Below are positions 21,093 through 32,403 of a stretch of 64,000 nucleotides of DNA, in pieces. The stretch's first letter is position 1; every line of letters starts with the position of its first letter. The notes beneath the pieces were generated by a model. The model saw only the letters and a list, made by a program, of their open reading frames with translations. It was not told the DNA's origin and searched no databases. This DNA is from Rhodothermales bacterium (GTDB lineage: Bacteria; Bacteroidota; Rhodothermia; Rhodothermales; JABDKH01), in the NCBI GenBank assembly GCA_965224105.1, contig CBDCYH010000002.1, forward strand, positions 1,785,112 through 1,849,111. The letters are read 5' to 3'. The translations under genes were made by a program, and so were the position numbers.

Positions 21093-21094
21093 GG

Positions 21095-21168
21095 TGGGTC
21101 CTAGCGGATTCGAACCACTGACCTCTACGATGTCAACGTAGCGCTCTAACCAACTGAGCTAAGGACCC
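21095..21168 (-). tRNA. tRNA-Val (anticodon GAC)
   Basis: 74-nt cloverleaf read on the minus strand: acceptor GGGUCCU/AGGACCC, D-arm GCUC...GAGC, anticodon stem CUACG/CGUAG with loop UUGACAU, T-arm AGUGG-UUCGAAU-CCGCU. CCA is not encoded (next bases CCG). Confidence 0.9.
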
Positions 21169-24906: not shown

Positions 24907-25599
24907 TTATATAATCCGTTCGAGAAAATACAGCAACGCGTAAGGCACAGTGAGTCCGAACACCGTTCCGGCGATAACCTCGGGTCTCGAGTGCGCCCTC
25001 AGGTGGAGTCGCGCCCAAACAACAATCGGGGTTGCAAGAACTCCGAGGATTATGGCCAGGACTAACTGCGTCGTTCCTCCAGCAAGTATCGCCTCCTTTT
25101 CCAGCAAAATAAACAGGGTCATACTTACAAAACCTGTGATACTGGCCATGTGTAGCGAAATTTTGAAACGGGTGTTGATGAGAAACAGGATCACGGCGTT
25201 CAGCGCATAACACAGTAGTAACGAGGTAATCAGTTTGGGTACCGGCCGTGCAAGGGTGTGAACGAGGGCGAGGACAACAAAATCTGATGCGATGCTAACC
25301 AGGTATGGCGCCAATCGGAGTTCTTTCTGACGCAACTCAATTGAAACACCGCCATGCGTCTCCGCTACGCGCAGGATGATGACAAACGGAATAAGCGCAA
25401 AGAAAATTATCGACAACGTTATTATCGTTGCCGTCTGAGCTCCGGTCAGGGTCAGCTTCGCGCATACGATCGACAAAAGGATTGGCGGGAGGATTAGTGG
25501 ATTTATGATATACGTAATCCACTTAGCCAGAGACAATGAGCCCGGCGTACCACCGGCGTGCATTTCTACTGCGGATGATTCCTTAGTATGCTCTTGCAA
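24907..25599 (-). CDS. PAP2-superfamily-like integral membrane protein (divergent)
   Basis: Polytopic. ISLHMAS and [16 protein letters not shown] resemble PAP2 motifs 2 and 3 (SxH; SRx5Hx3D with A/E substitutions). The annotated start overlaps the proS 3' end by 17 nt, so a later start (MHAGG) is possible. Confidence 0.5.
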
Positions 25600-27055
25600 A
25601 AACGACCCTTCGTTGTGACGGCTTACCGGAGATCATGTCCTTCCCGGATTCCTCCTGCTGATTCAGCGGTATGCACCGGATGGTGGCTTTCGTGCGCTGT
25701 TTTATTTCCTCCTCGGTTTCAGCGGATCCATCCCACGGAGCATACACAAAGCCGCCCTTATTCTTGATGACATCAGCGAATTCGTCAAACGTGTCGACGG
25801 TCGTGGTCATGTCTTCCCGAAATTTAAGCGCACGCTTGTACAGAGAGTACTGAATGTCGTCGAGTAGATCAGACACGTGAGCGTCAATTCCGTTCATCGC
25901 AACCGATTCTTTTTCTTTCAAATCCCGGCGGCTCACCTCTACGCTTCCACTCTGGAGATCGCGAGGGCCGATGGCAATGCGCACAGGCACACCCTCCGTT
26001 TCGTGTTGGTTAAACTTGAACCCGGGACGGACACCATCGCGGCTATCCAATGCAACCGTAATTCCCTTGGCCTCGAGCAACTGTTTGATTTGTTCGCCAG
26101 CCTCCAGGACGTTGTTGCGCTCGTCTTCTTTGCGGTAAATCGGAACGATAACTACTTGTGTTGGGGCAAGCTTTGGTGGCAGGATCAAACCCTGGTCATC
26201 GGAATGCGACATAATCAGTGCGCCGATCAACCGGGTGGAAACACCCCAGGACGTGGCCCACACATACTCGAGCTGATTGTCCCTCGTCTGATACTTACAA
26301 TCAAACGCCTTAGCAAAGTTTTGTCCGAGGAAGTGACTCGTGCCGGCCTGCAGCGCTTTACCGTCCTGCATCAACGCCTCGATGCAGTACGTGTCCACTG
26401 CACCAGCAAACCGCTCACTCTCTGACTTCACGCCGCGGAGTACCGGCACGGCCATATAGTTCTCGGCAAAGTCAGCGTAGATGTCGAGGATCTTTAATGT
26501 TTCCTCAACCGCTTCCTCCTTCGTTTCGTGAGCCGTGTGTCCTTCCTGCCACAAGAATTCGAGCGTGCGCAGGAAAAGTCGGGTGCGCATCTCCCATCGA
26601 ACGATGTTTGCCCACTGGTTGATAAGCACAGGCAGGTCTCGCCACGACCGAATCCACTTGCTGTATGAATCCCAGATTATCGTCTCGCTCGTGGGCCGAA
26701 TCACCAGATTCTCTTCCAGCTTCGACTCTTCTGTGGCCGTTAGCTCGCCCGCTTCGTTCAGGCCCAACTTCGAATGGGTAACAATTGCGCACTCTTTTGC
26801 AAAGCCTTCTACGTGGGCCGCCTCCCGGGCGAGAAACGACTCCGGAATGAGCAAAGGGAAATATGCATTTTGATGCCCGGTCGCCTTGAACATCCGGTCG
26901 AGCTCACGCTGCATATTTTCCCAAATGGCAAACCCGTTCGGCCGGATTATCATACATCCTCTAACCGGCGCATAATCAGCAAGCTTGGCCTCTCGAACGA
27001 TATCGATATACCATTTGGAAAAATCAGAATTCCGTGGCGTGATGGCGTCGGCCAT
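25583..27055 (-). CDS. proS: proline--tRNA ligase (archaeal/eukaryote-like type)
   Basis: 490 aa. N-terminal [30 protein letters not shown], class II motifs, no bacterial INS editing insertion, terminal Tyr. Confidence 0.93.
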
Positions 27056-27325
27056 AGTGTACAGTTAGTGCGTGGTTATGAATACAGGATTGAACGCCCA
27101 AAATGGACGAAAAAGGGTCAGGAACGAGTGTGAGGCCCTCCGGTCCGAAATTTGCCACGAAACGCGGTAGAAATAGCTACCTGGAGGCAATGGCACCGAA
27201 ATGACCGAGTTCAGCAAATATACCGGCATACCGGCACCTTTGTCATACGGTTTTGAAGAAATGCTTCTCTCCCCAAATTTGTGTAAAATCGAAAGGTAGC
27301 CCCAGATTTGTTATCAGATACGCAC

Positions 27326-28522
27326 ATGAAAAAGTACACAACACTTTCGCCCACGTTGATTCTGCTGATGAGCTTTGTCCTGAGCGGATGCTACACCCAG
27401 TTGGCTACAGTAGACGTCGACGACCGCGTACACACAAAACGTGTCACCATTATTGAAGACGAAGACGGGCAGATTGTCGAAACCGAGTACTACGACGAAG
27501 ATGCGTACTACGAAGACGATGTCTACATCCCGTCGAGCTACAACACCTACTTCAGAACGTATTACCACGATCCGTTCTACTCTTCGCATTACGATCCCTG
27601 GTACTCGTACGACCGGTACTATTACGGTGGCGGGCCTTACGGATACTACGGCTACAATCCTTACCGATATCGGAGCGGTCTGACGCTCTCGTTTACCTGG
27701 GGACGGCCGTGGGGACATCGACGATACTGGCCTGCATACGGCAACCACTACTACGGCTATAATCCTTTCCGGTACAACAACTACTACTCTGGCTACTACG
27801 GCGGGTACGGCTATAACAACTACGGCTATGGCTACAACGGATATTACGGTGGAAGCAAGCGAGCGAGATTGTCGAACCGCTTTGCTCCTCGCGGAAGCTC
27901 CTACGGCAGAAGTGGACTGAGTTCGCAGCCGGAGGAAAGAGGCTACAATAGAAATACTGGCAACAGAACAGTAACGCGAACCGGCAGCAGCGCAGCGGCC
28001 GCAAAATCAAGGAGTGGAAATTCACGAGCGCGGAGCAGCACAAGAACGGTGCGGCGCGGCGATGCAGCGACCCGGACGCGGTCGTCCAACCGATCCTCAA
28101 CCCGAACTCGATCTTCCGACCGATCGTCGTCATCATCGGCGACGCGGTCAACAAGAAAGCGTAGTAGTTCGTCAGGTGTTCGTTCTCAAAGCTCACGCGG
28201 ATCGCGGTCTTCGGCCCGGCCGTCATCGAGCCGAACGAGGTCGACTCCGTCTCGAACCACGACTACAAGGTCGCGCTCGAACGACCGGAGTTCGTCATCC
28301 GCTCGGACAACCAGAACGAGGTCGTCATCCCGGAGCGCGGCACGATCAGGATCTTCGCGCTCGTCATCGAAACCGTCGCGCGCCACTTCATCCAGAAAGT
28401 CCTCCGGGTCAAGTGCATCGAAATCCCGAAGCTCATCTCGCAAATCGTCCGCCCGCTCAAGCGGCAAGTCGAGAAGCTCCAGTAAATCATCAAGGAGTTC
28501 CAGCCGACGCGGAAGGAACTAA
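27326..28522 (+). CDS. lipoprotein with Tyr/Gly/Asn-rich region and about 220-aa Ser/Arg-rich C-terminal tail
   Basis: MKKYTTLSPTLILLMSFVLSGC lipobox. An acidic Y-rich stretch is followed by YGGGPYGYYGYNPYRY-type repeats. The last 222 aa contain about 50 Arg and 9 Lys against about 5 Asp/Glu (my count). Confidence 0.65.
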   Translation: MKKYTTLSPTLILLMSFVLSGCYTQLATVDVDDRVHTKRVTIIEDEDGQIVETEYYDEDAYYEDDVYIPSSYNTYFRTYYHDPFYSSHYDPWYSYDRYYYGGGPYGYYGYNPYRYRSGLTLSFTWGRPWGHRRYWPAYGNHYYGYNPFRYNNYYSGYYGGYGYNNYGYGYNGYYGGSKRARLSNRFAPRGSSYGRSGLSSQPEERGYNRNTGNRTVTRTGSSAAAAKSRSGNSRARSSTRTVRRGDAATRTRSSNRSSTRTRSSDRSSSSSATRSTRKRSSSSGVRSQSSRGSRSSARPSSSRTRSTPSRTTTTRSRSNDRSSSSARTTRTRSSSRSAARSGSSRSSSKPSRATSSRKSSGSSASKSRSSSRKSSARSSGKSRSSSKSSRSSSRRGRN

Positions 28523-28538: not shown

Positions 28539-30158
28539 ATGATAGAATCTATCCGTGCCATTGGTGCGTCCATGAAAAACCGATCAGGACGTCGCCCCAA
28601 ACTCCAGCTCGCCACGTTAGCGATAGCATTTTCAAGCTTTATCTTTGCGACGGGGGCGTCTGCCCAAACAGCCGTCGACGCAATCCGATTCTCCGAGCGG
28701 CAGCCGGGCCTCGCGGCGCGAGCGCTGGGGATGGGCGGTGTCGGAACGGCCGGCCTTGGGGACTACTCAGCCGTGTTTTCGAATCCAGCCGGGCTCGGGT
28801 ACATGAAAGCCTCGTCGTTTTCAGGCTCGCTTAGCCTATACTCCACCTCCGACGATGCCACTTACTCAATCGGCTCATCGGACCTGCTCACTCCCAACGA
28901 TATCACCGATACCCAGCTATCACACCTTGCATACACCTATAAGGCACCAACCAGGCGCGGCTCACTCGTATTCGCACTTGGGTTGAGTCAAACGGCATCC
29001 TTCTCCAGGGAGCTGGCCTTTGACGGATCGAACCCCAACAACTCCGCAACAGATTTTTTCATGCCGTTGTCGGATGAGTTTACAGTCGATGTTTCTGCTG
29101 GTGCCGACGGGATTAGCGGAACAGCAGATGATGAGTTTACCCCATCCTTTACCCGCGACCTTTCGGCAATAGCCTACAACATCTTCGCTATTGATCTCGA
29201 CGTGGACGCGTTTGAGAATGGCGATCCGGTTCCATTCTTTCCTGCCGTTACAACGGGCACGGTCGACCAGCAGGGACTGGTAACAGAGCGTGGGGCCATG
29301 CACGAGGTAAACATTGCGGCTGCATACGAGGCTTCGAAGAACGTAATGGTTGGCTTCGGAATAAACATCCCATACGGAAAATGGGAGCTGAACAGAGGCT
29401 TCACGGAAAACGATTCCCGGAACGACAACGATGGGTCCGGCACAACTGTCGATTTTGATCGACTGGAGTGGGACCAGTTCGTAGAGTCGCGTTTGGCCGG
29501 TGTTAATCTCCGTGGCGGTGTTTCCTTTGTCATGCCAAATGGCTTCCGCGGAGGACTTTCGGTTGAGAGCCCAACGTACTACTACATCGAGGAAGATTTC
29601 GAAACTATTATCACAACGGTTTTTGATGATGGATTTACCGACACGTACGGCGATGATTCATCAGAAGACATTGGCAAAGGGAGCTTCGACTACAACCTTA
29701 TAACCCCCTGGCGTCTTGGGGCGGGAATCGGATACTCCAACAGACGTTTCAAGGTCATGCTGGATGCCGAACTGATCGATTGGAGCCAAATGGAGTTTGA
29801 TTCGGATGTATTCTCATTCGCAGAAGAAAACAGGGATATGGCTCGCAACCTGGACCAGGTAGTAAATGCTAAACTTGGAGCCGAGTACCTCGTTGGCTCA
29901 TTCGCTGTCCGGGCTGGACTGGCAGGAATATCCGATCCAAGAAATTTGGACCTCCTGACGGACCCGGTAGATAAAACACGGATCTTCGGATCACTTGGTT
30001 TCTCGTTCTACCCAAACAATAAATTTGCTTTGGACGTCGCGGTTGCTCAAGATGCTTTCGATGATGAGTACACTCCGTACAATATCGTTGGCGCTCCGGT
30101 GATATCAGAAGTAGTACGACGAAATCAACTTGCCATCGGACTGAGATTCTTTTTCTAG
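28539..30158 (+). CDS. outer-membrane beta-barrel protein (FadL/PorV-like transport family)
   Basis: Signal peptide ...ATGASAQ. N-terminal motif RALGMGGVGTAGLGDYSAVFSNPAGLGY and C-terminal ...LAIGLRFFF typical of OM barrels. Starts 16 nt after the lipoprotein gene. Confidence 0.7.
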   Translation: MIESIRAIGASMKNRSGRRPKLQLATLAIAFSSFIFATGASAQTAVDAIRFSERQPGLAARALGMGGVGTAGLGDYSAVFSNPAGLGYMKASSFSGSLSLYSTSDDATYSIGSSDLLTPNDITDTQLSHLAYTYKAPTRRGSLVFALGLSQTASFSRELAFDGSNPNNSATDFFMPLSDEFTVDVSAGADGISGTADDEFTPSFTRDLSAIAYNIFAIDLDVDAFENGDPVPFFPAVTTGTVDQQGLVTERGAMHEVNIAAAYEASKNVMVGFGINIPYGKWELNRGFTENDSRNDNDGSGTTVDFDRLEWDQFVESRLAGVNLRGGVSFVMPNGFRGGLSVESPTYYYIEEDFETIITTVFDDGFTDTYGDDSSEDIGKGSFDYNLITPWRLGAGIGYSNRRFKVMLDAELIDWSQMEFDSDVFSFAEENRDMARNLDQVVNAKLGAEYLVGSFAVRAGLAGISDPRNLDLLTDPVDKTRIFGSLGFSFYPNNKFALDVAVAQDAFDDEYTPYNIVGAPVISEVVRRNQLAIGLRFFF

Positions 30159-30238: not shown

Positions 30239-31057
30239 ATGAACCAGCTCAACGCTAATGCTCGCCTAAGTCCGCGTGTCGACCAAAAGACGACACCTAT
30301 CGAACATGGCTCCGCGCTTAACCTGGTGGCGGAGTCGTTCGTCGACTACCTTTTCCACGGTAGCGCCGTGCGCAATTTCATTCCCGAGGGCAGATTCGAA
30401 ATTCTGTTCCAACACGGGAGCCTGTTTCTGCACAATGCGGATGGCGCCAACTGGGCTGCCCGCCCCATCGGATTTGTAGGCGGCCTTCACTCCAAGGCCT
30501 ACCGCGTAAAACCTGATAAACATGCAGCCGAGTGTTTTGGAATTCGCCTGAAAACGAATTTCACGCACTGGCTCATTCCGCATTCTCTACATCAGTTCAA
30601 GAATGGAGTTTTTGACATTGCTGACATTTTTGGTGAGGAAGCTCGCGCGCTGACGCACAAACTCGGCCAGACGTCCGATCGCCTGGAGCAGTTCGCGTTG
30701 ATTGAGCAGTTCCTGGTGCCGAGAATCAGACCCAGGTCCAGGCGCCTTGATGCTCCGTTCGAGCAAATGATTTGGCAGAACTGCTCGATTTCAGTTCGCG
30801 AATTGTCAAATCTCTGTCATTGCTCCGATTCACATTTCAGGAAATTGTTTTACGAAGAAATTGGCCTCTCACCGAAAGAGTACATCAAGGTTGTTCGCAC
30901 TAGGAAAGCGATAACAGAAATGCAGTCAGGACGACACGATTCGCTCACAGAGGTTGCGTATTGTCTGGGCTACTTCGATCAGTCACATTTTATCAGCGAC
31001 TTCAAGTCGGTCACTCAAGCACTTCCCAGCAACTATTTCGTGGCTGCCAGCGATTGA
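30239..31057 (+). CDS. AraC family transcriptional regulator
   Basis: C-terminal double HTH: SDSHFRKLFYEEIGLSPKEYIKVVR...LTEVAYCLGYFDQSHFISDFK. Confidence 0.8.
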   Translation: MNQLNANARLSPRVDQKTTPIEHGSALNLVAESFVDYLFHGSAVRNFIPEGRFEILFQHGSLFLHNADGANWAARPIGFVGGLHSKAYRVKPDKHAAECFGIRLKTNFTHWLIPHSLHQFKNGVFDIADIFGEEARALTHKLGQTSDRLEQFALIEQFLVPRIRPRSRRLDAPFEQMIWQNCSISVRELSNLCHCSDSHFRKLFYEEIGLSPKEYIKVVRTRKAITEMQSGRHDSLTEVAYCLGYFDQSHFISDFKSVTQALPSNYFVAASD

Positions 31058-31146
31058 CGCGGGCCGAATAAGCGATTTGTACAATCTCATTGTCGGCGCT
31101 TCCTGTACTGTTAACAGATTCACACCGTCAACAATGCTTGGATCTA

Positions 31147-32403
31147 ATGCGAATCATTACTCAACTCATACGCGCGTGTATCTTCTGCTGTCTGCTCGCC
31201 CAGGGCGCTCTTGCCCAGACGGCCTTTGTCCAATCGTTCAATGCCGGGAATTTCGAGCAATCTGTCGAGGAGGCAAGGAAAGTTCTTGGGGAAAATGAAA
31301 ACGACCCGGCAGCCAATTTTTACACGGGAGCCTCTCTCGTTCGGCTCGAGAGATACGCCGAGGCAGAGAAATTCCTGATCGCCGCACGCACAAACAGCTT
31401 TCAACCGGCGGTAGCCGTGGGTGCAAACTTGCTAAGAACATTCGCTGGCCAGAAAAAAACGAATCAGCTTTTTGCCGAACTGGATTCGTTAACAGCAAGC
31501 GGTTTCCGAGGTCTCCGTACGCTGCAATCGGCGGAGTTTGACTATCTCAGAGACAGCGACAGGTTTGTCCAGGCGGAGGAAGCGGTGTACGCCAACGCCT
31601 TCCCGTGCACATCCGACGATCGTTACAAGAAATTGGATTTTTGGGTGGGCGCCTGGAACATCTACGACCGAAACGAAAACCTGATTGCACATAGCAACAT
31701 TTCCAAGAGAGAAGGCGGCTGTACTGTATTTGAGGACTACCGCACATTGACCGGGTTTGTCGGGAGCAGCATCAATTATTTTGATGATGCTGATGAAATG
31801 CAAAAACAGATCTGGATCGACCTGAACAACAGCATCACCCGATACCAGGAGGTAGCATCCGATCGGGATTCGCTAATCATGCTGGCGCAAAGGGATAGCG
31901 TGAACTTCAACAGGATGGTTTTTGTGCACTCAGCCAACGGCGATACCGTTCGCCAGACCTTTCAGAATTCGCCGGATGCCGGGAAAACCTGGACAAACGG
32001 CTTTTTTGGTAAGTACGTCCGACAGACCAAAGCCTCAGTAGGAAGCGAACTGCGAGAAGTCCTAAGCAAGATGGAGGCGCTTTTCCAAGAGGACAACATG
32101 GCGGAGATTGCAGACTTCTACACATCCGATGCAGTTATTTATGGGCCGGGGGGGAGGACGTATGAAGGCATCGATGCTGTTCGCGCCTACTGGCAGTCAC
32201 TCAAGGGAAAAGGGGTGTCCTGGACCAATACGGTAGAAGCCGTGCATCTGGATGATGGACAGGTGACGTCGCTTTCAACATCAGATCTAAAGCACGTTTT
32301 TAACGGGAGCCAGGTGACCTCGCTTACAAAAGCACTAGTGATTTGGAAACGCGTGGGTGGCGAGTACAAGATCCACCGTGATTTTTATCAGATGATGCGA
32401 TAG
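31147..32403 (+). CDS. secreted protein with TPR-like N-terminal region and SnoaL/DUF4440-like (NTF2-fold) C-terminal domain
   Basis: The ATG at 31147 gives the signal peptide MRIITQLIRACIFCCLLAQGALAQ. The C-terminal ADFYTSDAVIYGPGG...AYWQSL...VIWKRVGGEYKIHRDF resembles NTF2-like domains. Confidence 0.55.
   Translation: MRIITQLIRACIFCCLLAQGALAQTAFVQSFNAGNFEQSVEEARKVLGENENDPAANFYTGASLVRLERYAEAEKFLIAARTNSFQPAVAVGANLLRTFAGQKKTNQLFAELDSLTASGFRGLRTLQSAEFDYLRDSDRFVQAEEAVYANAFPCTSDDRYKKLDFWVGAWNIYDRNENLIAHSNISKREGGCTVFEDYRTLTGFVGSSINYFDDADEMQKQIWIDLNNSITRYQEVASDRDSLIMLAQRDSVNFNRMVFVHSANGDTVRQTFQNSPDAGKTWTNGFFGKYVRQTKASVGSELREVLSKMEALFQEDNMAEIADFYTSDAVIYGPGGRTYEGIDAVRAYWQSLKGKGVSWTNTVEAVHLDDGQVTSLSTSDLKHVFNGSQVTSLTKALVIWKRVGGEYKIHRDFYQMMR

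What the first reader, a model, noticed from the sequence alone, without database searches (positions are those of the whole stretch)
27326..28522. Lipoprotein with a Tyr/Gly-rich low-complexity region followed by a ~220-residue Ser/Arg tail
Seen in sequence: after a clean lipobox (FVLSGC) the protein has three distinct regions.
- An acidic Tyr-rich stretch (YYDEDAYYEDDVY).
- About 100 residues of Y/G/N/P repeats (YGGGPYGYYGYNPYRY, YYSGYYGGYGYNNYGYGYNGYYGG).
- A 222-residue tail made almost only of S, R, T, K, A and G. By my count it has about 50 Arg and 9 Lys against about 5 acidic residues.
The single 404-codon frame is continuous with the signal peptide, which supports this frame over the two alternative open frames in the same DNA.
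Established knowledge: [G/S]Y[G/S]-type and RS-rich segments are hallmarks of eukaryotic phase-separating and RNA-binding proteins. They are unusual in bacterial envelope lipoproteins.
Inference: this may be a surface or periplasmic polycationic, disordered protein that binds polyanions (eDNA, LPS/capsule, polyphosphate), or a matrix or adhesive protein. I do not recognise a described family.
Basis: partly seen in the sequence, partly recalled or inferred. Interest (0 to 1): 0.6.

Follow-up and report, generated by a model that had tools for sequence, protein, structure and literature searches.

The report
Disordered cationic lipoprotein paired with barrel
This is a real gene for a fully disordered, tyrosine-rich and strongly positively charged lipoprotein, part of a large, unnamed family in the Bacteroidota/Rhodothermota group that always sits just upstream of its own FadL-type outer-membrane barrel gene, so the two very probably work as a pair whose function nobody has tested.

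Summary
ORF 27326-28522 (+) encodes a 398-aa lipoprotein precursor.

It is not an artefact or a wrong frame. In closely related genomes, substitutions in the tail pile up at third codon positions of this frame.

It belongs to an unnamed family with no Pfam or NCBIfam model and only "hypothetical protein" labels. A profile of the non-tail part finds 1,155 clusters at 50% identity.

Across 55 members the family keeps:
- a lipobox plus a conserved peptide (C-Y-T-Q-L);
- a segment of about 160 aa that is about 30% Y/W/F;
- one conserved alternating-hydrophobic strand motif (GLTLSFTWG);
- an S/T/R tail (median net charge +37) with evenly spaced basic residues and an R-G-(G)-R/N C-terminus.

In 33 of 33 testable Rhodothermales loci, and in Balneolaceae, Flavobacteriaceae, Sphingobacteriaceae and Ignavibacteriales, the gene lies directly upstream of an orthologous FadL-fold barrel.

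Function is inferred only. The likeliest reading is a lipoprotein-barrel complex whose cationic tail binds anionic envelope polymers. The FUS/SR-protein analogy is only compositional.

The parts
27056..27325 (.). Intergenic region between the divergently transcribed proS gene and the lipoprotein gene. It presumably holds both promoters.
   Evidence: ORF map. The sigma-70-type scan finds one promoter-like site on the - strand (27246..27217) and none upstream of the + gene. Bacteroidota-type promoters are not covered by that tool. proS is the divergent neighbour in 36 of the 51 loci fetched.
27326..28522 (+). Lipoprotein gene encoding a 398-aa precursor plus stop. An alternative in-frame TTG start lies at 27308.
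   Evidence: Homologues with the same architecture. The frame is confirmed by codon-position substitution patterns in related pairs.
27326..27388 (+). Signal peptide (residues 1-21, MKKYTTLSPTLILLMSFVLSG), type II (lipoprotein).
   Evidence: KK n-region, hydrophobic core and lipobox L-S-G-C. It is the only hydrophobic segment of the protein (maximum KD19 of 1.72 at residue 11). AF2 predicts a helix at residues 9-20.
27389..27406 (+). Lipidated Cys22 and the conserved N-terminal peptide C-Y-T-Q-L-A of the mature protein.
   Evidence: G-C-Y-T-Q is invariant in alignment A2. The motif GC[YF][ST]Q occurs in 48 of 55 family members. The Bacteroidota subtype has C-S-T-S-K-L-A-Q instead. Translation checked.
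27407..27550 (+). Acidic, Tyr-rich segment (residues 28-75), including EYYDEDAYYEDDVY.
   Evidence: Composition (computed for residues 23-75). The equivalent acidic Y-rich stretch is present in homologues. AF2 shows only a weak hairpin at 42-52 with pLDDT 56-68.
27551..27853 (+). Aromatic/Gly-rich low-complexity segment (residues 76-176; 32% Y, 19% G) with DP(F/W)Y and NPYRY motifs.
   Evidence: Family-wide, the stretch from the lipidated Cys to the start of the tail has a median length of 158 aa and about 30% Y/W/F. The DP[FWYL][YFW] pattern occurs in 47 of 55 members.
27677..27703 (+). Conserved alternating small/hydrophobic strand motif G-L-T-L-S-F-T-W-G (residues 118-126).
   Evidence: A perfect 8-residue alternation occurs in 28 of 55 members, against 0.27 expected from shuffled sequences (maximum 2 in 200 shuffles). 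At least 7 of 8 positions fit in 51 of 55, against 4.8 expected. Median position is 90 residues after the Cys.
27854..28519 (+). Polycationic Ser/Thr/Arg tail (residues 177-398; S82, R50, T22, K9, D3, E2).
   Evidence: Family tails have a median length of 236 aa, net charge +37, 42% S+T, 19% R+K and 8% hydrophobic residues. Basic residues are evenly spaced. The tail is under purifying selection in this frame.
28505..28519 (+). C-terminal R-R-G-R-N, a family-wide C-terminal ending of the type R-G-(G)-R/N.
   Evidence: The last residue is N in 26 and R in 19 of 55 members, and S in only 1, although Ser is the commonest residue of the tails.
28539..30158 (+). Partner gene: a FadL/OmpP1/TodX-fold outer-membrane beta-barrel (539-aa precursor). 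It starts 16 nt after the lipoprotein stop codon.
   Evidence: Pfam PF03349 scores 31.3 bits (cut-off 29.7). AF2 model pLDDT is 89.6. The top Foldseek matches are BamG and FadL/TodX. It is syntenic with the lipoprotein gene in every locus examined. No terminator-like site lies between the two genes.
25583..27055 (-). proS (prolyl-tRNA synthetase), the conserved divergent neighbour. It is context only, not part of the module.
   Evidence: Pfam domains ProRS-C_1, tRNA-synt_2b and HGTP_anticodon. Adjacent in 36 fetched loci.

Best explanation
**What it is (shown).** The gene encodes a Sec/signal-peptidase-II lipoprotein. Its whole mature chain (377 aa) is intrinsically disordered. It belongs to a large, undescribed family of the FCB superphylum: Rhodothermales, Balneolaceae, Ignavibacteriales, Flavobacteriaceae, Sphingobacteriaceae and Hymenobacter. 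The gene is always followed by an orthologous FadL-fold outer-membrane barrel gene. In this window the gap is 16 nt, consistent with an operon.

**How it most likely works (inferred).**
- The lipoprotein and the barrel form a stable outer-membrane complex.
- The lipoprotein docks through its conserved lipidated N-terminal peptide (C-Y-T-Q-L-A) and through the single conserved alternating-hydrophobic strand (G-L-T-L-S-F-T-W-G). That strand could pair with a barrel strand or occupy the lateral opening that FadL-type barrels have.
- This leaves the roughly 220-residue Ser/Thr/Arg tail free as a polyelectrolyte chain. Its positive charges are evenly spaced.
- The tail binds polyanionic envelope material: LPS phosphates, peptidoglycan, anionic lipids, or the very acidic loops of its own barrel.
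- The Tyr-rich segment and the Arg-rich tail could also associate with each other through Tyr-Arg contacts.
- The net role would be electrostatic tethering, stabilisation or monitoring of the outer membrane. This is analogous to other lipoprotein/barrel pairs.

**Open point.** Which face of the outer membrane carries the tail is not settled. The lack of a Bacteroidota surface-export signal after the Cys suggests that the N-terminus faces the periplasm.
For: **Real, translated gene**
- In close pairs, tail substitutions concentrate at third codon positions (pos1/pos2/pos3): 30/25/145 over 329 codons at 86% aa identity in L008 vs L009, 39/26/168 in L026 vs L028, and 10/5/35 in L039 vs L041.
- All Ser and Arg codons are used and there is no DNA repeat in the tail.

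**Lipoprotein**
- The window has a canonical lipobox. So do 131 of 140 new profile hits.
- The mature chain has no transmembrane-helix-like segment.

**Disorder**
- AF2 with a 34-sequence alignment gives mean pLDDT 44.

**Family**
- 74 word-index hits.
- 1,155 representative clusters at E<=1e-3 and 215 at E<=1e-10, using a profile that excludes the tail.
- Architecture statistics are conserved over 55 members.

**Obligate pairing with the barrel**
- The pair is found in L001, L002, L004, L005 and L006.
- In 33 of 33 Rhodothermales loci with enough upstream sequence, the ORF ending 24-296 nt before the barrel has an S/T/R-type tail. 32 of the 33 have GCYTQ, and 3 have aberrant C-terminal ends (L014, L017, L035), one of which (L017) also lacks the S/T/R composition.
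- A variant with a signal peptide but no lipobox also precedes an orthologous barrel (hhalign E 1.5e-42).

**Elements conserved beyond composition**
- The N-terminal peptide.
- The strand motif: 28 of 55 perfect against 0.27 expected.
- Even spacing of basic residues: adjacent basic residues 240 against 511 expected (z -16.7), and gaps of 4-7 enriched with z from +5.8 to +12.2.
- The C-terminal R-G-(G)-R/N ending.

**Precedent for FadL-type barrels holding partner proteins**
- BamG2 and BamH2 are in a putative operon (PMC12578637).
- RcsF is a lipoprotein that crosses the outer membrane inside OMP barrels, in a complex that monitors LPS (PMC4942254).

**Charge complementarity (weak hint only)**
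- The mature barrel has net charge -38, and its long loops are acidic.
Against: - No experimental or structural evidence exists for a physical complex. Synteny is the only link.
- No complex prediction could be run.
- The strand motif could instead mediate self-association or binding to another partner.
- AF2 gives the strand motif no structure.
- The correlation between barrel charge and tail charge is weak and not corrected for phylogeny (Spearman -0.36, p 0.09). The Pedobacter barrel is not acidic at all.
- Exporting a tail with net charge around +50 through Sec is energetically unfavourable. This leaves some doubt about its final location.
- Nothing identifies the polyanion. 'Tether, stabiliser or sensor' remains generic.
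- FadL-family barrels with an intact NPA hatch motif are classically transporters of hydrophobic molecules. That points towards a transport-related role instead.
Confidence: 0.45

Rival explanations
1. Surface adhesin or matrix protein. The chain is exported through or beside the barrel to the cell surface. There the Tyr/Gly/Asn/Arg-rich segment and the cationic tail stick to eDNA, capsule, anionic polysaccharides or substrata, or coacervate, in the manner of mussel-foot-type adhesive proteins.
For: - The composition is 32% Y and 19% G, plus N, P, R and W in the middle, followed by an Arg-rich tail.
- The putative extracellular loops of the barrel are strongly acidic (166-241 net -13, 363-380 net -6, 415-439 net -5). 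They could guide or hold a cationic chain.
- FadL-type barrels of this phylum anchor surface proteins such as BamH. PorV is a proposed substrate-binding and shuttling protein of the T9SS.
- NHBA of Neisseria is a surface lipoprotein with a disordered region and an Arg-rich heparin-binding stretch (PMC6104945, listed).
Against: - There is no Bacteroidota lipoprotein export signal. The first acidic residue comes at +8 after the Cys, whereas known signals have two or more acidic residues just after it (legend quoted).
- There is no T9SS C-terminal domain.
- No known route carries a 220-aa cationic chain across the outer membrane through a FadL barrel whose hatch is intact.
- The gene pair sits next to proS in soil, marine and hot-spring lineages alike. 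That looks housekeeping rather than niche-specific.
Confidence: 0.2
2. Accessory of a genuine FadL-type transporter. The barrel imports or exports a hydrophobic or amphiphilic anionic molecule, such as fatty acids, sulfonolipids or other lipids. The disordered aromatic and cationic lipoprotein captures or hands over that substrate, as SusD-like lipoproteins do for SusC.
For: - The barrel passes the Pfam Toluene_X threshold.
- It keeps the N-terminal hatch with an invariant N-P-A (N82, P83, A84), as transport-competent FadL proteins do.
- Foldseek scores FadL and TodX as high as BamG.
- Aromatic plus Arg residues suit binding of anionic amphiphiles (inference).
Against: - No lipid- or fatty-acid-metabolism genes are linked in any of the loci inspected.
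- A 220-residue tail under purifying selection, with regular charge spacing, is excessive for capturing a small molecule.
- No known FadL system has such a partner.
Confidence: 0.15
3. Assembly or plug partner. The lipoprotein is needed only for the folding, gating or stability of the barrel (as LptE is for LptD). The tail is a spacer or a BAM-targeting element with no ligand of its own.
For: - Strict synteny and the close spacing (16 nt).
- The conserved strand motif could insert into the barrel.
- RcsF/OMP and LptE/LptD are precedents for interlocked lipoprotein-barrel assembly (PMC4942254; LptD/LptE from established knowledge).
Against: - The tail is the longest part of the protein and is under purifying selection at the sequence level (86% aa identity while 44% of third positions differ).
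- It has non-random charge spacing and a conserved C-terminus. A passive spacer would not explain this.
Confidence: 0.1
4. Artefact. The ORF is a chance open frame, the wrong frame, or two genes joined by a frameshift, and the 3' half is not translated as Ser/Arg.
For: - Other frames of the same DNA are also open.
- The exact protein sequence is absent from the 15-billion-protein collection, although the neighbouring barrel is present. The gene may have been called differently in the source assembly.
Against: - Third-position substitution bias in this frame in seven related pairs.
- The same three-part architecture in more than 50 divergent homologues and in at least 1,155 clusters.
- A conserved C-terminal motif just before the stop codon.
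- GC3 typical of the genome.
Confidence: 0.01

Closest known systems
BamG-BamH (and the BamG2-BamH2 operon) of the Bacteroidota BAM complex
   Same: - A FadL-fold 14-stranded barrel is paired with a lipoprotein of the same phylum group.
[quoted passage not shown]
- The paralogous pair is in a putative operon (PMC12578637).
- BamG structures are among the best Foldseek matches of the barrel here (9hiv_F E 6e-17, 9hjm_F, 9n2d_B).
   Different: - The barrel scores 39.5 bits against a 250-bit cut-off on the BamG model.
- By my reading of the sequence against my recollection of E. coli FadL, it lacks the 10-12-residue N-terminal extension.
- BamH is a folded two-domain surface lipoprotein with an export signal. 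This lipoprotein is fully disordered, has no export signal and shows no sequence similarity to BamH.
RcsF-OmpA/OmpC/OmpF interlocked complex of Enterobacteria
   Same: - A lipoprotein takes up a transmembrane orientation inside an OMP barrel.
- The complex monitors LPS integrity (PMC4942254).
- It is the closest mechanistic precedent for a disordered lipoprotein segment combined with a barrel. That the RcsF segment is a disordered, positively charged linker is from my own knowledge.
   Different: - There is no homology.
- RcsF has a folded C-terminal signalling domain, a short linker (tens of residues) and no dedicated barrel encoded next to it.
- Here the disordered part is the whole protein and the barrel is a dedicated FadL-type partner.
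NHBA (Neisserial heparin-binding antigen)
   Same: A lipoprotein with a long disordered region and an Arg-rich stretch that binds the polyanion heparin (PMC6104945, abstract).
   Different: - NHBA has a folded C-terminal beta-barrel domain.
- Its Arg-rich motif is short and clustered.
- Here the basic residues are spread evenly over about 220 residues, and adjacent basic pairs are depleted.
Eukaryotic FUS-type Tyr-rich low-complexity domains and SR-protein RS domains
   Same: A Tyr-rich low-complexity segment and an Arg/Ser-rich segment lie in one chain. Tyr-Arg contacts are the established 'sticker' pair in FUS-family condensates (own knowledge, not tested here).
   Different: - Only 2 [G/S]Y[G/S] triads occur among 40 Tyr.
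- RS/SR dipeptides cover 31% of the tail and there is one RSRS. Classical RS domains have runs of RS repeats.
- The protein is exported and lipid-anchored, not nuclear or cytoplasmic.
- The resemblance is compositional only.
DUF3300 (PF11737) proteins and other exported proteins with S/T/R tails
   Same: P0064 (DUF3300), the Bacteroidales EF-hand-like proteins (P0028, P0047) and P0041 each carry an aromatic-rich stretch followed by an S/T/R tail ending in RR.
   Different: - Their N-terminal domains differ.
- No FadL-type barrel is encoded next to the two whose loci were fetched, P0028 and P0041.
- The window protein does not match PF11737.
- These are probably independent uses of a similar tail, or purely compositional matches.

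Membership tests
Bacterial lipoprotein (signal peptidase II substrate) | Positively charged n-region, hydrophobic h-region, and a lipobox [LVI][ASTVI][GAS]C with Cys at +1. | tested here: met
   MKK..., LSPTLILLMSFV, L-S-G-C22. A lipobox is present in 131 of 140 profile hits.
Bacteroidota surface-exposed lipoprotein (LES-dependent export) | Two or more acidic residues immediately after the lipidated Cys (roughly +2 to +6). | tested here: not met
   The mature N-terminus is CYTQLATVDVDD, with the first acidic residue at +8. The criterion is as stated in PMC12578637. Whether Rhodothermales use the same signal is unknown.
FadL/OmpP1/TodX family (partner barrel) | Match to Pfam PF03349 above the gathering score. 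| tested here: met
   31.3 bits against a cut-off of 29.7. Most homologues carry PF03349.
FadL/OmpP1/TodX family (partner barrel) | FadL-type barrel fold with an N-terminal hatch carrying the conserved NPA motif. | tested here: met
   AF2 model pLDDT 89.6. Foldseek matches FadL, TodX, TbuX and CymD at E 1e-13 to 1e-16. N82-P83-A84 is invariant in 36 homologues. The exact strand count and the lateral opening were not inspected because no coordinates were available.
BamG (Bacteroidota BAM subunit) | NCBIfam NF053685 equivalog score of at least 250 bits. | tested here: not met
   39.5 bits.
BamG (Bacteroidota BAM subunit) | Conserved N-terminal extension of 10-12 residues that threads the lateral opening. 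| tested here: inconclusive
   By eye, the mature N-terminus QTAVDAIRFSERQ... is about 4 residues longer than that of E. coli FadL. No structural alignment was made.
PorV/PorQ (T9SS shuttle and attachment barrels) | NCBIfam NF033709 score of at least 90 bits. | tested here: not met
   34.8 bits, N-terminal region only. PorV chain 8gl6_F reaches only E 4e-5 and TM 0.30-0.43 in Foldseek.
T9SS cargo protein | C-terminal sorting domain (Por_Secre_tail or a type B CTD). | tested here: not met
   No Pfam or NCBIfam hit at E<=0.1. The C-terminus is a disordered S/R tail.
DUF3300 (PF11737) | Match to PF11737. | tested here: not met
   No hit for the window protein or for nine of the homologues scanned. 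Only P0064 matches.
SR-protein RS domain | At least 50 residues with more than 40% RS/SR content made of consecutive RS or SR repeats (definition from own knowledge of the SR-protein nomenclature). | tested here: not met
   31% overall. The best 50-aa window reaches 46%, but there is only one consecutive RSRS. Basic residues are mostly 4-7 residues apart.
FUS-type prion-like low-complexity domain | Repeated [G/S]Y[G/S] triads in a polar, uncharged Q/N/S/G-rich context. | tested here: not met
   2 triads among 40 Tyr. The context is rich in D/E, P, R, W and F.

The most novel reading that the evidence does not exclude
The pair is a previously unrecognised kind of envelope device, common to the FCB superphylum. 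A wholly disordered lipoprotein is interlocked with a dedicated FadL-type barrel through a single membrane-crossing beta-strand. Its evenly charged polycationic tail and Tyr-rich segment form a polyelectrolyte brush or condensate-like layer on one face of the outer membrane. That layer would bind LPS or peptidoglycan and contribute to outer-membrane tethering or integrity in bacteria that lack Braun's lipoprotein.
Probability: 0.15. Interest if true: 0.85.

Novelty: new variant of a known kind. Interest (0 to 1): 0.62.

Why it matters
Bacteroidota and their relatives build their outer membrane differently from Proteobacteria. FadL-type barrels have recently emerged as platforms that hold partner proteins in BAM and in the type IX secretion system.

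This finding adds a third, much less conventional pairing. It is conserved across several classes and placed next to a housekeeping gene. The partner is an entirely disordered, highly charged lipoprotein with no annotation anywhere.

If the pair tethers or monitors the outer membrane, it would address how these phyla, which lack an Lpp-type tether, couple the outer membrane to the cell wall. If the Tyr/Arg composition drives self-association, it would be a rare example of an exported, lipid-anchored bacterial protein that works as a polyelectrolyte or condensate.

At the least, it defines a family of more than a thousand sequence clusters that deserves a database model. It also gives a clear experimental entry point, because orthologues exist in culturable Pedobacter, Oceanihabitans, Rhodothermus, Rhodocaloribacter and Salinibacter.

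Tried and rejected
- **Database searches on the lipoprotein.** Pfam, NCBIfam and PDB-sequence searches gave nothing. Pfam on 17 homologues gave nothing except DUF3300 in P0064, which shares only the tail.
- **Alignment-based locus searches.** A two-sequence barrel alignment worked but reached only Rhodothermales.
- **Source organism.** The identical barrel (P0075) is known from a 2.2-Mb contig, but the contig look-up found no record. The lipoprotein's exact sequence is not in the collection. The 27308 query was probably read with Leu rather than Met for the TTG start, so that look-up is uninformative. The best genome relatives are Rhodothermales MAGs at 53% barrel identity or less.
- **Structure prediction of the lipoprotein.** It gave only disorder. 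A lipoprotein-barrel complex could not be predicted with the tools available.
- **Literature.** Searches on FadL + lipoprotein + disordered, on Arg-rich disordered Bacteroidota lipoproteins, on FadL/PorV paralogues, and on DUF3300 found no description of this family.
- **BamG or PorV identity of the barrel.** Rejected on model scores.
- **Cytoplasmic tail (positive-inside topology).** Considered and set aside. The mature protein has no hydrophobic segment that could stop transfer, and lipoprotein processing is conserved across the family.
- **C-terminal sorting tag (PEP-CTERM, GlyGly-CTERM or MYXO-CTERM type).** Rejected because no hydrophobic helix precedes the basic C-terminus.
- **Bacteroidota O-glycosylation.** No D-[ST]-[AILVMT] sequon is present.
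- **Charge co-variation between barrel and tail.** Suggestive but not significant.
- **Rfam, tRNA and promoter/terminator scans.** They added nothing relevant to the finding.
Full report
**1. The observation**

- An ORF runs from ATG 27326 to the stop codon at 28520-28522 on the + strand, encoding 398 aa.
- The N-terminus, MKKYTTLSPTLILLMSFVLSGC, is a textbook type II signal peptide with lipobox L-S-G-C22.
- The composition counts are exact:
  - residues 23-75 are acidic and Tyr-rich (17% D, 15% Y, 11% E);
  - residues 76-176 are 32% Y and 19% G;
  - the last 222 residues contain S82, R50, T22, A17, G14, K9, D3 and E2.
- The tail is not a DNA repeat. Tandem Repeats Finder reports nothing there, and all six Ser and all six Arg codons are used.
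- GC3 in this frame is 0.56, typical of the neighbouring genes.
- No other ORF in the window has such a region.

**2. The frame and the gene are real**

I compared the lipoprotein genes of closely related genomes fetched through the barrel. Substitutions in the tail fall overwhelmingly on third codon positions of the Ser/Arg frame:

| Pair | Differences at pos1/pos2/pos3 | Codons | aa identity |
|---|---|---|---|
| L008 vs L009 | 30/25/145 | 329 | 86% |
| L026 vs L028 | 39/26/168 | 261 | 82% |
| L039 vs L041 | 10/5/35 | 278 | 95% |

This is purifying selection on the protein in this frame. It shows that the tail is constrained in sequence among close relatives, not merely in composition. The other open frames in the same DNA are by-products of the low-complexity sequence.

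**3. It belongs to a large, unnamed family**

- Pfam, NCBIfam and PDB-sequence searches find nothing for this protein.
- A word-index search returned 74 proteins, all unnamed or 'hypothetical'.
- Reading the hits shows a shared plan:
  - a lipobox followed by G-C-Y-T-Q-L;
  - an acidic Tyr-rich stretch (EYYDED.YYEDD);
  - Y-R-R-Y-F and repeated DP(F/W)Y motifs;
  - a short stretch such as S-L-S-F-G-W-G;
  - more Tyr/Gly;
  - often Y-G-P-R-G-S;
  - an S/T/R tail ending in ...R-G-(G)-R/N.
- A profile built only from the N-terminal and aromatic part (alignment A6, tail excluded) was searched against 1.84 billion representatives. It found 1,155 clusters at E<=1e-3 and 215 at E<=1e-10, matched end to end at the N-termini of proteins mostly 190-480 aa long.
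- Of 140 new hits, 131 have a lipobox.
- Two subtypes are visible: G-C-Y-T-Q-L... and S-C-S-T-S-K-L-A-Q... The named examples of the second subtype are Pedobacter. It has shorter tails and ends in P-S-R-G-G-R, T-R-G-G-G-R or R-P-S-R-G-N.
- Every named member is 'hypothetical protein', and none has a Pfam domain.

**4. Quantitative anatomy over 55 members**

- The stretch from the lipidated Cys to the start of the tail has a median length of 158 aa. It is about 30% Y/W/F and 12% G, with net charge -8.
- The tail has a median length of 236 aa, with 42% S+T, 19% R+K, 8% hydrophobic residues and net charge +37.
- The last residue is N (26 of 55) or R (19 of 55). It is S in only 1, although Ser is the commonest residue of the tails.

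Two features go beyond composition.

*Spacing of basic residues.*
- Adjacent basic residues number 240 against 511 expected from shuffling (z -16.7).
- Gaps of 4-7 residues are enriched (z from +5.8 to +12.2).
- Gaps of 10 or more are depleted (z -14).
- In the window tail, a gap of 4 occurs 17 times against 5.9 expected.

*Alternating strand motif.*
- About 90 residues after the Cys lies the only stretch with aliphatic or Phe/Trp residues. They alternate strictly with small residues: G-L-T-L-S-F-T-W-G in the window (27677-27703), and G-W-S-L-S-F-G-W-G, H-F-S-M-S-L-G-F-G, G-F-S-L-G-L-S-F-G elsewhere.
- A perfect 8-residue alternation occurs in 28 of 55 members, against 0.27 expected (maximum 2 in 200 shuffles).
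- At least 7 of 8 positions fit in 51 of 55, against 4.8 expected.
- This is the pattern of an amphipathic beta-strand of the kind that spans an outer membrane or pairs with a barrel edge.

*Disorder.*
- AF2 with a 34-sequence alignment predicts no structure beyond the signal helix and a weak hairpin at residues 42-52 (mean pLDDT 44).
- The mature chain has no helix-like hydrophobic segment (maximum KD19 -0.04).

**5. The partner barrel**

- Sixteen nucleotides after the stop codon, with no terminator-like site between, starts a 539-aa protein (28539-30158).
- It passes the Pfam Toluene_X (OMPP1/FadL/TodX) threshold (31.3 against 29.7 bits).
- It folds with high confidence (pLDDT 89.6).
- Its best solved-structure matches are BamG of the Bacteroidota BAM complex (9hiv_F, 9hjm_F, 9n2d_B) and FadL, TodX and TbuX. 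These score about equally (E 1e-13 to 6e-17). PorV is far weaker (E 4e-5).
- It is not BamG or PorV by their NCBIfam models (39.5 against 250 bits, and 34.8 against 90 bits).
- It keeps the hatch NPA motif, with N82-P83-A84 invariant in 36 homologues.
- The mature barrel has net charge -38, and its long loops are acidic.

**6. The pairing is conserved (the strongest functional clue)**

- The lipoprotein gene is immediately upstream of an orthologous barrel in:
  - a Rhodothermales-like MAG (L001);
  - Balneolaceae (L002);
  - Oceanihabitans (Flavobacteriaceae, L004);
  - Pedobacter steynii (L005);
  - an Ignavibacteriales MAG (L006), where a 178-aa mini-paralogue with G-C-Y-T and an ...S-G-R-K end is intercalated.
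- A barrel-based scan of one genome per species returned 42 loci, all labelled Rhodothermales, Rhodothermia or Rhodothermaceae or only broadly (Bacteroidetes/Bacteroidota, uncultured bacterium) (53% identity or less, so the window's own lineage is not among the representatives).
- In all 33 loci with at least 1 kb upstream, the ORF ending 24-296 nt before the barrel has an S/T/R-type tail. 32 of the 33 have GCYTQ. Three (L014, L017, L035) have aberrant C-terminal ends, probably from ORF picking or sequence errors.
- A subfamily that has an ordinary signal peptide (...A-Q|D-D-V-Y-Y) instead of a lipobox is also followed by an orthologous barrel (hhalign probability 100%, E 1.5e-42).
- By contrast, proteins that share only the aromatic-plus-S/T/R tail have other N-terminal domains (P0028, P0041 and the DUF3300 protein P0064). 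No barrel lies next to P0028 or P0041, the two whose loci were fetched.
- proS is the divergent upstream neighbour in 36 of the fetched loci. These include the Flavobacteriaceae, Sphingobacteriaceae and lipobox-less examples.

**7. Mechanism (inferred)**

FadL-fold barrels in this group of phyla repeatedly serve as membrane platforms for partner proteins.
- BamG2 and BamH2 are in a putative operon (PMC12578637).
- PorV is a proposed substrate-binding and shuttling protein of the type IX secretion system.
- Outside the phylum, RcsF is a lipoprotein that takes up a transmembrane orientation inside OMP barrels, in a complex that monitors LPS (PMC4942254).

By analogy, and given the strict synteny, I propose that the lipoprotein docks on its barrel through the conserved C-Y-T-Q-L peptide and the alternating strand. 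The tail would then be an evenly charged polycation that binds polyanionic envelope material.

The absence of acidic residues right after the Cys argues against the known Bacteroidota surface-export signal (criterion). This favours a periplasm-facing N-terminus, but the location of the tail is open.

- Shown: the gene, the frame, the family, the conserved motifs, the charge pattern, the synteny and the barrel fold.
- Inferred: the complex, the docking elements, the ligand and the physiological role.

**8. Rivals**

It lacks an export signal or a known export route.
- A substrate-capture accessory of a true FadL transporter is compatible with the intact NPA hatch. It does not explain a long, constrained, regularly charged tail, and no metabolic genes are linked.
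- An assembly or plug partner of the LptE type does not explain selection on the tail.
- An artefact is excluded.

**9. Comparison with eukaryotic low-complexity domains**

The resemblance is compositional only.
- There are 2 [G/S]Y[G/S] triads among 40 Tyr.
- RS/SR dipeptides cover 31% of the tail, with a single RSRS.
- Having a Tyr-rich and an Arg-rich segment in one chain still makes self-association through Tyr-Arg contacts conceivable. That is untested.

**10. Verdict**

- The feature is an undescribed but widespread variant of a known theme, the lipoprotein plus outer-membrane barrel pair. Its partner protein is of a kind not described before: entirely disordered, aromatic-rich and polycationic.
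- I found no paper on it.
- Interest is moderate to high. The evidence for existence, conservation and pairing is strong. The function is unknown, and the candidate functions bear on open questions about the envelope of the FCB phyla.

Noticed in passing
window 25583-27055 (-) and loci L001, L004, L005, L007-L049: proS is the divergently transcribed neighbour of the lipoprotein-barrel pair in 36 of the 51 loci fetched, across Rhodothermales, Flavobacteriaceae and Sphingobacteriaceae. It is not the neighbour in the Balneolaceae (L002) or Ignavibacteriales (L006) loci. This is unusually deep conservation of gene order for functionally unrelated genes, and the reason is unknown.
   Followed up: partly
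L006:7221-7757 (+): In the Ignavibacteriales locus, a 178-aa mini-paralogue lies between the full-length lipoprotein gene and the barrel gene. It has the lipobox motif F-L-T-G-C-Y-T, a short Tyr-rich part and a C-terminus ...N-S-G-R-S-G-N-S-G-R-K.
   Followed up: no
proteins P0028, P0047, P0044, P0046 (Bacteroidales), P0019/P0041, and P0064 (DUF3300): Several unrelated exported proteins carry the same kind of module: an aromatic/Trp-rich stretch, then an S/T/R tail ending in RR. Their N-terminal domains differ, and the two loci fetched (P0028, P0041) show no adjacent barrel. The tail may be a mobile or convergently evolved module in its own right.
   Followed up: partly
window 28665-28667 (Gln43 of the barrel) and family-b proteins such as P0066: The predicted signal-peptidase-I cleavage site of the barrel leaves an invariant N-terminal Gln (A-Q|T..). 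The lipobox-less lipoprotein relatives also have ...A-Q|D-D. This is consistent with the Bacteroidota 'Q-rule' of N-terminal pyroglutamate (rule recalled from my own knowledge).
   Followed up: no
window 27326-28522: The exact lipoprotein sequence is absent from the 15-billion-protein collection, although the adjacent barrel (P0075) is present from a 2.2-Mb contig. The gene was probably called with another start, or not called at all, in the source assembly. Low-complexity genes of this kind may be systematically under-annotated.
   Followed up: partly
window 28539-30158 and 23 paired loci: Barrels of the Rhodothermales pairs are very acidic (mean net charge -39), nearly the mirror of the tails (mean +41). 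The Pedobacter barrel is neutral (+1) and its tail carries only +13. The trend is not significant (Spearman -0.36, p 0.09) and is not corrected for phylogeny.
   Followed up: partly
window 30239-31057 (+) and 31090-32403 (+): Downstream of the pair lie an AraC-type regulator gene (HTH_18/HTH_AraC) and a gene for a TPR + DUF4440/SnoaL-like protein. Neither was seen in the other loci whose gene tables were read, so they are probably unrelated to the module.
   Followed up: no
window 21093-21168 (-): A single tRNA-Val (GAC) is the only RNA gene detected in the window by ARAGORN and Rfam.
   Followed up: no
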